Notes: generated by a model not told the origin, from the sequence alone. A stretch of DNA of 64,000 nucleotides from Escherichia coli (GCF_013315695.1 NZ_CP054353.1), one strand, 5' to 3'. Positions 35,829 through 35,882 are shown, counted from the stretch's first letter. Numbers and translations: made by a program.

Positions 35829-35882
35829 ATATCAGGTGTCAAGAATGGAGAGCGAGAACTCTCCATTCTTGACACCTGATAT
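35829..35882. repeat. perfect 24-bp inverted repeat with 6-nt loop between ymgC and pdeG
   Basis: atatcaggtgtcaagaatggagag / cgagaa / ctctccattcttgacacctgatat; arms are exact reverse complements. Confidence 0.8.

What the first reader, a model, noticed from the sequence alone, without database searches (positions are those of the whole stretch)
35829..35882. 54-bp perfect hairpin between ymgC and pdeG
The two 24-bp arms are exact reverse complements around a 6-nt loop, in an AT-rich intergenic region with no coding potential. A stem this long and perfect is unusual for a simple terminator (no immediate U-tract on either strand). It could be a processing or stability element for the ycgZ-ymgA-ariR-ymgC transcript, an operator for a dimeric regulator upstream of pdeG, or a miniature mobile-element scar.
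Basis: seen in the sequence. Interest (0 to 1): 0.35.

Follow-up and report, generated by a model that had tools for sequence, protein, structure and literature searches.

The report
Long hairpin after E. coli ymgC
A real, single-copy, E. coli-specific 54-bp perfect palindrome sits just after the last gene of the ycgZ-ymgA-ariR-ymgC operon; it most likely forms a stem-loop at the end of that mRNA, and it is perfect in this strain only because of one base change.

Summary
In detail: 35829-35852 and 35859-35882 are exact reverse complements around a 6-nt loop. About 2e-9 such repeats are expected by chance, and it is the longest perfect inverted repeat in the window.

It is single-copy, in roughly 91% of 5,426 complete E. 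coli genomes. It has no copies in plasmid or phage collections, no Rfam match, no REP annotation in K-12, and no U-tract directly after the stem.

It is perfect in only about 4% of genomes. K-12 and most strains have one mismatch (C instead of T at 35837), which is a G·U wobble in the ymgC-sense RNA. Two alternative corrected alleles (T-A and C-G) exist; T-A sits on at least two flank haplotypes. B2/D-type strains carry a 4-nt insertion and a weaker hairpin.

All ten alleles fold better as minus-strand (sense) RNA. Covariation is not significant, and no 3'-end data cover the site.

Best reading (confidence about 0.45): a 3'-terminal stem-loop that ends or insulates the operon mRNA, kept near-perfect by quasipalindrome template-switch mutation. 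Rivals: a neutral quasipalindrome, a pdeG promoter or operator element, an RNase III site.

The operator idea is untested, and the mobile-scar idea is not supported. Interest is modest.

The parts
35859..35882 (-). 5' arm of the stem-loop in the sense (minus-strand) RNA; the right arm on the plus strand
   Evidence: Exact complement of 35829-35852. It carries the 4-nt insertion and substitutions in B2/D-type alleles.
35853..35858 (-). Loop (plus strand CGAGAA; sense RNA UUCUCG, folded as a U·G-closed UCUC tetraloop)
   Evidence: The loop is CGAGCG in B2/D-type alleles and CGAAAA in L044.
35829..35852 (-). 3' arm of the stem-loop in the sense RNA; the left arm on the plus strand
   Evidence: It carries the A/G differences (GGAGAG versus GGAAAA) that are G·U on the sense RNA.
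35837..35837 (.). Polymorphic base that makes this strain's hairpin perfect: T here, C in K-12 and most E. coli. It pairs with 35874.
   Evidence: Alignments. The T-A perfect 54-mer is in at most 152 records.
35874..35874 (.). Partner of 35837: A here and in K-12, G in the alternative perfect (C-G) allele
   Evidence: L058. The C-G perfect 54-mer is in at most 71 complete-genome records, 12 of them shown at 100% identity and full length.
35837..35842 (-). -35-like hexamer TTGACA facing pdeG (TTGACG in K-12). It is part of the promoter TTGACG-19-TATTTT that the authors of a published RpoD gSELEX study predicted from sequence for ycgG/pdeG.
   Evidence: Direct reading, and the table in PMC3946193. 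It was not found by the consensus scan, which requires a 16-18 nt spacer.
35812..35817 (-). Candidate -10 TATTTT, 19 nt after the hexamer; it lies within the U-rich run that follows the stem
   Evidence: Direct reading; PMC3946193. The equivalent sequence is TGTTTA in B2/D-type alleles (alignment).
35869..35874 (+). Mirror -35-like TTGACA facing ymgC (antisense direction)
   Evidence: Direct reading. It is destroyed in B2/D-type alleles. No acceptable -10 was found.
35809..35819 (-). U-rich run (UUUAUUUUAUU) beginning 9 nt after the stem on the sense RNA
   Evidence: Direct reading. In the single-sequence fold, a 5-bp helix AGGCG/CGCCU could bring it next to a closed structure. That helix is broken (CACCU, CCCCU) in several alleles.
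35895..35928 (-). 34-nt block of the ymgC 3' UTR, invariant among eight BLAST-retrieved genomes, forming a small predicted hairpin (GAGCAU/AUGCUU)
   Evidence: In the metagenome loci, 22 nt of the block are invariant by ascertainment, because they were the search pattern.
35977..36225 (-). ymgC, the last gene of the ycgZ-ymgA-ariR-ymgC operon; its stop codon is 94 nt upstream of the hairpin
   Evidence: Northern evidence for one polycistronic mRNA is stated in PMC3509220.
34122..35645 (-). pdeG (ycgG), the next gene downstream; its annotated start codon is 183 nt after the hairpin

Best explanation
The element is a natural (quasi)palindrome in the ymgC-pdeG spacer. It is transcribed as part of the ycgZ-ymgA-ariR-ymgC mRNA (minus strand). 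There it folds into a very stable stem-loop about 95 nt after the ymgC stop codon.

It most likely defines and protects the 3' end of that operon's mRNA and insulates pdeG from read-through. It lacks an adjacent U-tract, so it is not a canonical intrinsic terminator. The inferred mechanism is that transcripts stopping in the AT-rich, H-NS-bound spacer (by Rho or by weak hairpin/U-rich termination) are trimmed back by 3'-5' exonucleases to this stem-loop.

The exact perfection seen in this window is not the functional norm. It comes from a single C-to-T change at 35837. The ancestral-looking state is a G·U wobble on the sense RNA. Because the DNA is a quasipalindrome, replication template switching is expected to drive such corrections repeatedly.

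Shown here: the anatomy, single-copy status, allele spectrum, strand asymmetry of folding, and absence of a canonical terminator. Inferred: that the RNA end lies at the hairpin, the exonuclease-barrier or insulator role, and the template-switch origin of the corrections.
For: Position and strand:
- The hairpin is 94 nt after the stop codon of the last gene of an operon reported to give a single polycistronic mRNA (PMC3509220).
- It lies upstream of the pdeG start.
- No consensus terminator exists anywhere in 35400-36400.
- ymgC mRNA was expressed but not polyadenylated, which is the pattern that study associates with transcripts lacking a Rho-independent terminator (PMC1636475).

Folding:
- All 10 hairpin alleles fold more stably as minus-strand RNA (-25.7 to -44.2 kcal/mol) than as plus-strand RNA (-12.4 to -42.9).
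- Over 240 pair cells, the minus strand has 207 Watson-Crick, 20 G·U and 13 mismatches. The plus strand has 207, 5 and 28.
- Six distinct G·U states fall on the minus strand, against one or two on the plus strand.
- At pair 35837/35874 the population holds U-A, U·G and C-G on the sense RNA. This is the classic path through a wobble intermediate.
- Allele L093, confirmed in 3 complete genomes, pairs all 24 positions on the sense RNA with three G·U. On the other strand it has three C·A mismatches.
- The degenerate B2/D-type alleles still keep a hairpin of -26 to -29 kcal/mol on the sense strand.

Template-switch correction:
- The T-A allele occurs on a K-12-type flank haplotype (ATCC 8739) and on the different window-type haplotype.
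- The C-G allele occurs on K-12-type flanks.
- Diversity is higher in the hairpin (pi 0.10) than in the adjacent ymgC-side spacer (0.037).
Against: - No RNA 3' end is mapped here. The one Term-seq supplement I could read lists no 3' end on either strand in this region, probably because the operon is poorly expressed at 37 C.
- Covariation is not significant. No pair changes on both sides by the tool's count, and shuffles reach the observed values. The consensus fold has 0 compensatory pairs.
- The G·U asymmetry rests on only 7-8 events (one-sided p roughly 0.06-0.14), and part of it depends on how the indel is aligned.
- The hairpin is the most variable part of the ymgC-side spacer.
- A 24-bp perfect stem is far longer than an exonuclease barrier needs. 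It would be a good RNase III substrate, which could destabilise the transcript rather than protect it.
- No strong C-rich, G-poor tract for Rho loading is evident. The best 78-nt window has C 26% and G 12%.
- There is no outgroup, because ymgC and the spacer are E. coli-specific. The direction of change is therefore inferred.
Confidence: 0.45

Rival explanations
1. Neutral natural quasipalindrome. The inverted repeat arose by chance or by an inverted duplication in horizontally acquired AT-rich DNA. It has no cellular function. It persists and is repeatedly made perfect only through hairpin-templated replication template switching, which is the established quasipalindrome mutation mechanism in E. 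coli.
For: - Both possible corrections of the same mismatch (T-A and C-G) segregate, and T-A sits on at least two flank haplotypes.
- All differences between the major haplotypes cluster in the hairpin, and diversity there is higher than in the neighbouring spacer.
- There is no significant covariation.
- There is no mapped RNA end.
- The locus is E. coli-specific and dispensable, absent from about 9% of genomes (PMC3509220).
Against: - Template switching predicts no strand preference, yet the remaining imperfections are mostly G·U on the transcribed sense strand.
- The most common allele keeps the wobble rather than a perfect pair.
- B2/D-type alleles have diverged by an indel and transversions yet still keep a strong sense-strand hairpin.
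- The position, right after the last gene of an operon with no other terminator, is what a functional 3' structure would occupy.
Confidence: 0.3
2. DNA-level control element of pdeG. The arm proximal to pdeG supplies the -35 hexamer (TTGACA here, TTGACG in K-12) of a pdeG promoter with a long 19-bp spacer. The dyad could be bound by a dimeric regulator or extrude a cruciform under supercoiling. The 35837 polymorphism would then tune promoter strength.
For: - A published genomic SELEX with RpoD holoenzyme lists a site in the ymgC>ycgG spacer, flagged as H-NS-bound, with predicted TTGACG-19-TATTTT (PMC3946193).
- Those hexamers map to 35842-35837 and 35817-35812.
- The T allele turns TTGACG into consensus TTGACA.
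- As DNA, the palindrome folds at -29.4 kcal/mol.
Against: - The promoter in that paper is a sequence guess near a low-resolution peak.
- A 19-nt spacer and a TATTTT -10 are poor, and the consensus scan finds nothing here.
- The -10 candidate is not conserved in B2/D-type alleles (TGTTTA), and the mirror hexamer is destroyed there.
- 24-bp arms are much longer than any known operator half-site.
- I could find no transcription start site data.
Confidence: 0.13
3. RNase III processing site. The 24-25 bp perfect double-stranded RNA stem is cleaved by RNase III. Cleavage separates the ymgC 3' end from downstream RNA and controls the decay of read-through transcripts into pdeG.
For: - The stem length (24-25 bp, about two helical turns) meets the size requirement for E. 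coli RNase III substrates (established knowledge).
- One RNA-seq comparison lists position 1217246 in the ymgC-ycgG spacer, about 100 nt downstream of the hairpin, with 41 reads in the rnc mutant against 0 and 1 in wild type (PMC5371410 Table S1).
Against: - That table is dominated by low-count sites in poorly expressed genes. Neighbouring bluF-ycgZ and ycgG positions are listed too, so it may reflect general up-regulation.
- The listed site is not in the stem.
- The supplement of the dedicated in vivo cleavage map was not available, and ymgC is not mentioned in its main text.
- B2/D-type alleles interrupt the helix with a bulge and an internal loop.
Confidence: 0.09
4. Scar of a miniature mobile element (a MITE-like or abutted IS-end remnant) or a member of a repeat family such as REP/BIME.
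For: The overall shape is two long terminal-inverted-repeat-like arms with a tiny interior. The ATAT/ATAT ends could hide a TA duplication (direct reading).
Against: - There is one locus per genome. The two BLAST places per genome are the two strands of the same palindrome.
- The only copies in 72,556 plasmid records are mislabelled chromosomal fragments, and there are none in 50,697 phage records.
- No other copy exists in the window.
- No repeat feature is annotated in K-12.
- There is no Rfam family.
Confidence: 0.03

Closest known systems
Stable 3'-terminal stem-loops of Rho-dependent or non-canonically terminated E. coli transcripts (exonuclease-trimmed 3' ends; the REP-type mRNA stabilisers work in the same way)
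   Same: A strong hairpin without an adjacent U-tract, placed shortly after the last gene of an operon on the transcribed strand, with no canonical terminator nearby.
   Different: The stem is much longer and more perfect than typical examples. It is single-copy rather than a REP. No 3' end has been mapped at it. No clear rut-like tract is present.
Intrinsic (Rho-independent) terminator
   Same: A stem-loop in a 3' UTR with a U-rich run downstream.
   Different: The U-rich run starts 9 nt after the stem. The stem is 24 bp at 42% GC rather than a short GC-rich stem. It fails the consensus scan. ymgC mRNA lacks the polyadenylation associated with such terminators.
Natural quasipalindrome template-switch hotspots in E. 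coli (for example the thyA hotspot studied by the Lovett laboratory; cited from my own knowledge)
   Same: An imperfect inverted repeat in which observed variants convert a mismatch into a perfect pair. Both possible directions are seen, and the change recurs on different backgrounds.
   Different: Here the evidence is population polymorphism, not measured mutation rates. The arms are longer than in the studied hotspots.
RNase III substrates such as the rnc and pnp leader hairpins and the rRNA processing stems
   Same: An uninterrupted double-stranded RNA helix of about two turns.
   Different: No cleavage has been demonstrated. The helix is interrupted in about a third of E. coli genomes.

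Membership tests
Intrinsic (Rho-independent) terminator | U-tract beginning 0-2 nt after the stem | tested here: not met
   One search found 0 terminator-like sites in 35400-36400. By direct reading, the stem is followed by CCCGCCUAA before the U-rich run on the minus strand, and by UGCGGACAU on the plus strand.
Intrinsic (Rho-independent) terminator | Short GC-rich stem (about 5-14 bp) with a small loop | tested here: not met
   The stem is 24-25 bp and the hairpin is 42.6% GC.
Intrinsic (Rho-independent) terminator | RNA 3' ends mapped at the U-tract | not testable with these tools
   The only readable Term-seq supplement has no 3' end in this region. Other supplements were not held.
REP/BIME repeats | Many dispersed copies per genome | tested here: not met
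   One locus per genome across about 4,950 genomes. No second copy in the window.
REP/BIME repeats | Annotated as a repeat in K-12 or matching a known repeat model | tested here: not met
   The K-12 record shows only CDS features across the region. Rfam gives only chance-level hits.
MITE or IS-end scar | Related copies elsewhere (other loci, plasmids, phages) | tested here: not met
   Searches found only the same chromosomal locus in mislabelled records, plus chance matches of 18-27 nt.
Exonuclease-barrier or operon-end stem-loop | Stable hairpin on the transcribed strand downstream of the last gene | tested here: met
   The hairpin is 94 nt after the ymgC stop. Sense-RNA folding energy is -25.7 to -44.2 kcal/mol in all alleles.
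Exonuclease-barrier or operon-end stem-loop | Structure conserved with covariation | tested here: inconclusive
   94.6% of cells are paired, against 36-46% when the 3' partners are slid by 1-3 columns. No pair changes on both sides, and the shuffles are not exceeded. The G·U asymmetry favours the sense strand.
Exonuclease-barrier or operon-end stem-loop | Transcript 3' ends at the base of the stem; stability depends on the stem | not testable with these tools
   No data were found.
RNase III substrate | Double-stranded RNA helix of about 20 bp or more | tested here: met
   24-25 consecutive pairs in the window, K-12, L058 and L093 alleles. The helix is interrupted in B2/D-type alleles.
RNase III substrate | rnc-dependent cleavage in vivo | tested here: inconclusive
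   There is only a low-count rnc-mutant-enriched position about 100 nt downstream. The dedicated cleavage map supplement was unavailable.
Quasipalindrome template-switch hotspot | Imperfect inverted repeat whose variants increase complementarity | tested here: met
   The K-12 C·A mismatch is corrected to T-A (at most 152 records) or to C-G (at most 71 records).
Quasipalindrome template-switch hotspot | Recurrent, independent events | tested here: inconclusive
   T-A occurs on two flank haplotypes. A very short gene conversion cannot be excluded without a genome phylogeny.
Sigma-70 promoter | -35 and -10 hexamers with a 16-18 nt spacer | tested here: not met
   One search lists no site at the hairpin. 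The only candidate is TTGACA-19-TATTTT (PMC3946193).

The most novel reading that the evidence does not exclude
The hairpin is a heritable, mutation-prone switch between the blue-light/cold-induced ycgZ-ymgABC operon and the c-di-GMP phosphodiesterase gene pdeG. Quasipalindrome template switching would flip pair 35837/35874 among U·G, U-A and C-G. That flip would simultaneously change the stem's suitability as an RNase III or read-through barrier and the -35 hexamers (TTGACG/TTGACA) of a pdeG-directed promoter and an antisense promoter. Lineages would then differ in pdeG expression through a templated hotspot.
Probability: 0.07. Interest if true: 0.55.

Novelty: new member of a known kind. Interest (0 to 1): 0.25.

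Why it matters
If the stem-loop really sets the 3' end of the ycgZ-ymgABC mRNA, it explains how this biofilm and acid-resistance operon is separated from pdeG without a canonical terminator. It would also add a clear single-copy example of a non-REP 3' structural element.

Independently of function, it is a clean natural quasipalindrome in which the mismatch and both corrected states coexist in the E. coli population. That makes it a convenient natural test case for template-switch mutagenesis. Neither point changes current understanding, so the finding is of modest interest.

Tried and rejected
Outgroups. The search for related loci with YmgC found no confirmed relative. A degenerate ymgC DNA pattern scanned against species-representative genomes gave only one chance hit, in a Draconibacterium contig. 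The protein search shows YmgC only in E. coli and Escherichia sp.. The most divergent ymgC (79% identity, L010) has different downstream DNA, and homology ends about 35 nt before the hairpin. Polarity of change therefore could not be established.

RNA families. There is no credible Rfam hit; the best was a miRNA model at E = 1.

Published RNA-end data.
- The Term-seq supplement of PMC7815308 has no 3' end in this region.
- No supplements were held for PMC9023263, PMC6061677, PMC6212723 or PMC4161252.
- The SMRT-Cappable-seq supplement does not mention the genes.
- The RepRanger supplement has no entry.
- PMC4288677 is not held.

Closing helix. A 5-bp helix (AGGCG/CGCCU) would place the U-rich run next to a closed structure. 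I rejected it as a conserved feature because it is broken in several alleles, and its one transition is a wobble on the wrong strand.

Small ORF. The ORF across the hairpin is rejected because it is frameshifted in B2/D-type alleles.

Rho loading. Only a weak C>G window was found.

Other hairpin-using systems. By eye, the ends do not resemble integron attC sites or dif. A retron is unlikely because I saw no reverse transcriptase gene among the adjacent genes. None of these was pursued.

Full report
**1. The observation**

The sequence at 35829-35882 is as described. The arms are ATATCAGGTGTCAAGAATGGAGAG and CTCTCCATTCTTGACACCTGATAT, 24 nt each and 100% complementary, with CGAGAA between them.

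- Allowing 3 mismatches, nothing else in the 64-kb window matches an arm; 0 matches were expected in shuffles.
- The expected number of perfect 24-bp inverted repeats with a short loop in 64 kb is about 2e-9.
- It is the longest perfect inverted repeat in the window.
- As minus-strand RNA with flanks it folds at -54.9 kcal/mol, z = -10.7. As single-stranded DNA it folds at -29.4 kcal/mol, z = -12.0.

**2. Context**

The window is E. coli. The 361 nt around the hairpin are 100% identical to strain MS 21-1.

On the minus strand the genes are ycgZ (36948-37184), ymgA (36633-36905), ariR (36338-36604), ymgC (35977-36225) and pdeG (34122-35645). bluF is divergent on the plus strand.

The hairpin is 94 nt after the ymgC stop and 183 nt before the pdeG start. 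The spacer is 39.6% GC, against 48.5% for the window.

A 50-codon ORF crosses the hairpin but is frameshifted or truncated in other alleles, so it is not a gene.

**3. Copy number and distribution**

The 54-mer matches 4,951 of 5,426 complete E. coli genomes. The median of two places per genome is the same palindrome hit on both strands.

- The only plasmid hits are chromosomal fragments filed as plasmids, and phage hits are chance matches of 18-23 nt.
- The K-12 record carries no repeat feature here.
- Rfam gives only chance-level hits.

It is therefore not REP/BIME, not a mobile-element family, and not a described RNA family.

YmgC homologues are confined to E. coli and Escherichia sp.. Two scans of species-representative genomes found nothing. 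This agrees with the published statement that ymgC, ycgG and ymgF occur in certain E. coli strains and not in other enterics (PMC3509220). No outgroup is available.

**4. Perfection is the exception**

I collected 80 metagenome loci and about 20 genome loci. Together they gave 10 distinct hairpin alleles.

| Allele | Feature | Records in complete genomes |
|---|---|---|
| K-12 type (most common) | C at 35837, giving C·A on the plus strand and U·G on the sense RNA | roughly 2,900 |
| Window type | T at 35837, perfect T-A pair | at most 152 |
| L058 type | G at the partner 35874, perfect C-G pair | at most 71, 12 shown at 100% |
| B2/D type | 4-nt insertion plus substitutions in one arm, GGAAAA for GGAGAG in the other, a different loop | roughly 1,640 |
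| L093 type | B2/D-type arm and loop combined with the uninserted arm, on B2/D-type flanks | 3 |

The B2/D-type changes leave an 8-bp outer helix, an internal loop or bulge, and a 10-14 bp inner helix. The roughly 2,900 and 1,640 figures are my reading of BLAST identity bands, which can include partial alignments, not exact allele counts.

**5. Which strand matters**

Every allele folds more stably as minus-strand (ymgC-sense) RNA: -25.7 to -44.2 kcal/mol, against -12.4 to -42.9 for the plus strand.

On the allele alignment the sense strand has 207 Watson-Crick, 20 G·U and 13 mismatched cells. The other strand has 207, 5 and 28. Six distinct G·U states lie on the sense strand, against one or two on the other.

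Pair 35837/35874 shows U-A, U·G and C-G. L093 pairs all 24 positions on the sense RNA using three G·U.

This favours an RNA-level element on the transcribed strand, but the support is weak:
- It rests on few events.
- No pair changes on both sides, and shuffles reach the observed scores.
- There are 0 compensatory pairs in the 3'-UTR consensus fold.
- The hairpin is more variable (pi 0.10) than the adjacent ymgC-side spacer (0.037).

**6. Recurrent correction**

The T-A allele sits on the window-type flank haplotype (window, ST648, MS6198, 2014C-3075). It also sits on an otherwise K-12-type haplotype (ATCC 8739). The nearest distinguishing sites are 12 nt and about 56 nt away. The C-G allele sits on K-12-type flanks.

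A mismatch in an inverted repeat corrected in both possible directions, and on different backgrounds, is what replication template switching in quasipalindromes produces. That is established E. coli mutagenesis, cited from my own knowledge. Selection for a Watson-Crick pair in RNA would give the same pattern. A very short gene conversion is not excluded.

**7. What it probably does**

- Published Northern data indicate a single polycistronic ycgZ-ymgC mRNA (PMC3509220), so transcripts end between ymgC and pdeG.
- No consensus terminator is present in that interval.
- The stem has no adjacent U-tract; a U-rich run starts 9 nt later.
- ymgC mRNA was used as an expressed but non-polyadenylated control in a study that links polyadenylation to Rho-independent terminators (PMC1636475).

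Together these point to a non-canonical end. Transcription would stop in the AT-rich spacer, which a published gSELEX table flags as H-NS-bound (PMC3946193), by Rho or weak termination. The 3' end would then be held at this stem-loop, which would also limit read-through into pdeG. This last step is inference.

The only Term-seq table I could read has no 3' end in this region. That is expected for an operon expressed at low temperature. Evidence for Rho loading is weak.

**8. Rivals**

- **Neutral quasipalindrome.** It explains the perfection, the variability and the lack of covariation. It does not explain the strand bias or the position.
- **pdeG promoter or operator.** A published RpoD gSELEX table lists a site in the ymgC>ycgG spacer with predicted TTGACG-19-TATTTT (PMC3946193). 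The hexamer lies in the pdeG-proximal arm (35842-35837; TTGACA in this strain) and TATTTT at 35817-35812. By symmetry, a TTGACA also faces ymgC at 35869-35874. However, the spacer is 19 nt, the scan finds nothing, and the -10 and the mirror hexamer are not conserved in B2/D-type alleles.
- **RNase III site.** The helix is long enough. One rnc-mutant RNA-seq table lists a low-count position about 100 nt downstream (PMC5371410). This is a lead only.
- **Mobile-element scar.** Rejected (section 3).

**9. Verdict**

It is un-annotated and, in the library I searched, undescribed. It is an E. coli-specific, single-copy, polymorphic quasipalindrome that is perfect in this strain through one base change.

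The most likely role is a 3'-terminal stem-loop and insulator of the ycgZ-ymgABC mRNA (confidence about 0.45). A functionless quasipalindrome is the main rival (about 0.3).

It is a new member of known kinds, and interest is modest (0.25).

Noticed in passing
window 32542-33830 (approx.), with ORF 33868-34026 (minus strand): An IS3-family element sits between the autotransporter gene (29402-32050) and ymgF. Its InsC-like ORF (33414-33824) and InsD-like ORF (32542-33456) I recognise as IS2 from their sequences. The ymgF-like ORF ends early (52 aa, ending ...STGLGEV), whereas MS 21-1, identical around the hairpin, has an intact 219-nt ymgF and no IS there.
   Followed up: partly
window 38827-38864: A perfect 14-nt inverted repeat, ATACTTTGTACAAT / ATTGTACAAAGTAT, with 10 nt between the arms, lies in the bluF-bluR spacer about 55 nt upstream of the bluR start. 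A further GTGTACAGG follows at 38876-38884. The repeat contains the GTACA motif that PMC3509220 reports as the BluR/MlrA recognition element, so it may be an autoregulatory BluR site.
   Followed up: partly
window 35895-35928 and 35737-35768: Two blocks of the ymgC-pdeG spacer (34 nt and 32 nt) are invariant among eight divergent E. coli genomes, while the hairpin between them varies. The first block forms a small predicted hairpin (GAGCAU/AUGCUU) followed by UUCUU. Their function is unknown.
   Followed up: partly
L010 (GCA_017278115.1) 116-913: A divergent ymgC (79% amino-acid identity) is followed by cytochrome b561-like, gapC-like and aldehyde dehydrogenase genes instead of pdeG. Homology to the usual 3' UTR ends about 35 nt before the hairpin position.
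   Followed up: partly
L003 (ST131) and other B2-type loci; window 35600-35690 equivalent: B2 strains carry the known 5'-truncated pdeG (the ycgG2 allele of PMC6385356). The deletion endpoint lies in the pdeG-proximal part of the spacer, and the hairpin region is retained.
   Followed up: no
K-12 NC_000913.3 1217246; also 1215537 and 1218492: A published rnc-mutant RNA-seq table lists low-count positions enriched in the RNase III mutant in the ymgC-ycgG spacer, the bluF-ycgZ spacer and inside ycgG. This suggests the whole locus is up-regulated in that mutant.
   Followed up: no
K-12 NC_000913.3 1218619-1218730, minus strand (antisense to pdeG): Published Term-seq lists antisense RNA 3' ends inside pdeG, one of them in the file I read as the bicyclomycin (Rho inhibition) comparison. 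This implies Rho-terminated antisense transcription running towards the hairpin side.
   Followed up: no
ariR-ymgC spacer, window about 36226-36337: [quoted passage not shown] It also lists ariR, ymgA and ymgC among RprA partners (PMC9262595; bioRxiv 10.1101/2025.09.11.675593).
   Followed up: no
window 34122-35687: The pdeG ORF extends 14 codons upstream of the annotated start (521 aa against 507 aa), beginning MAFSCIKPFGRDKQ before MRNTLIP. RefSeq uses the shorter form.
   Followed up: no
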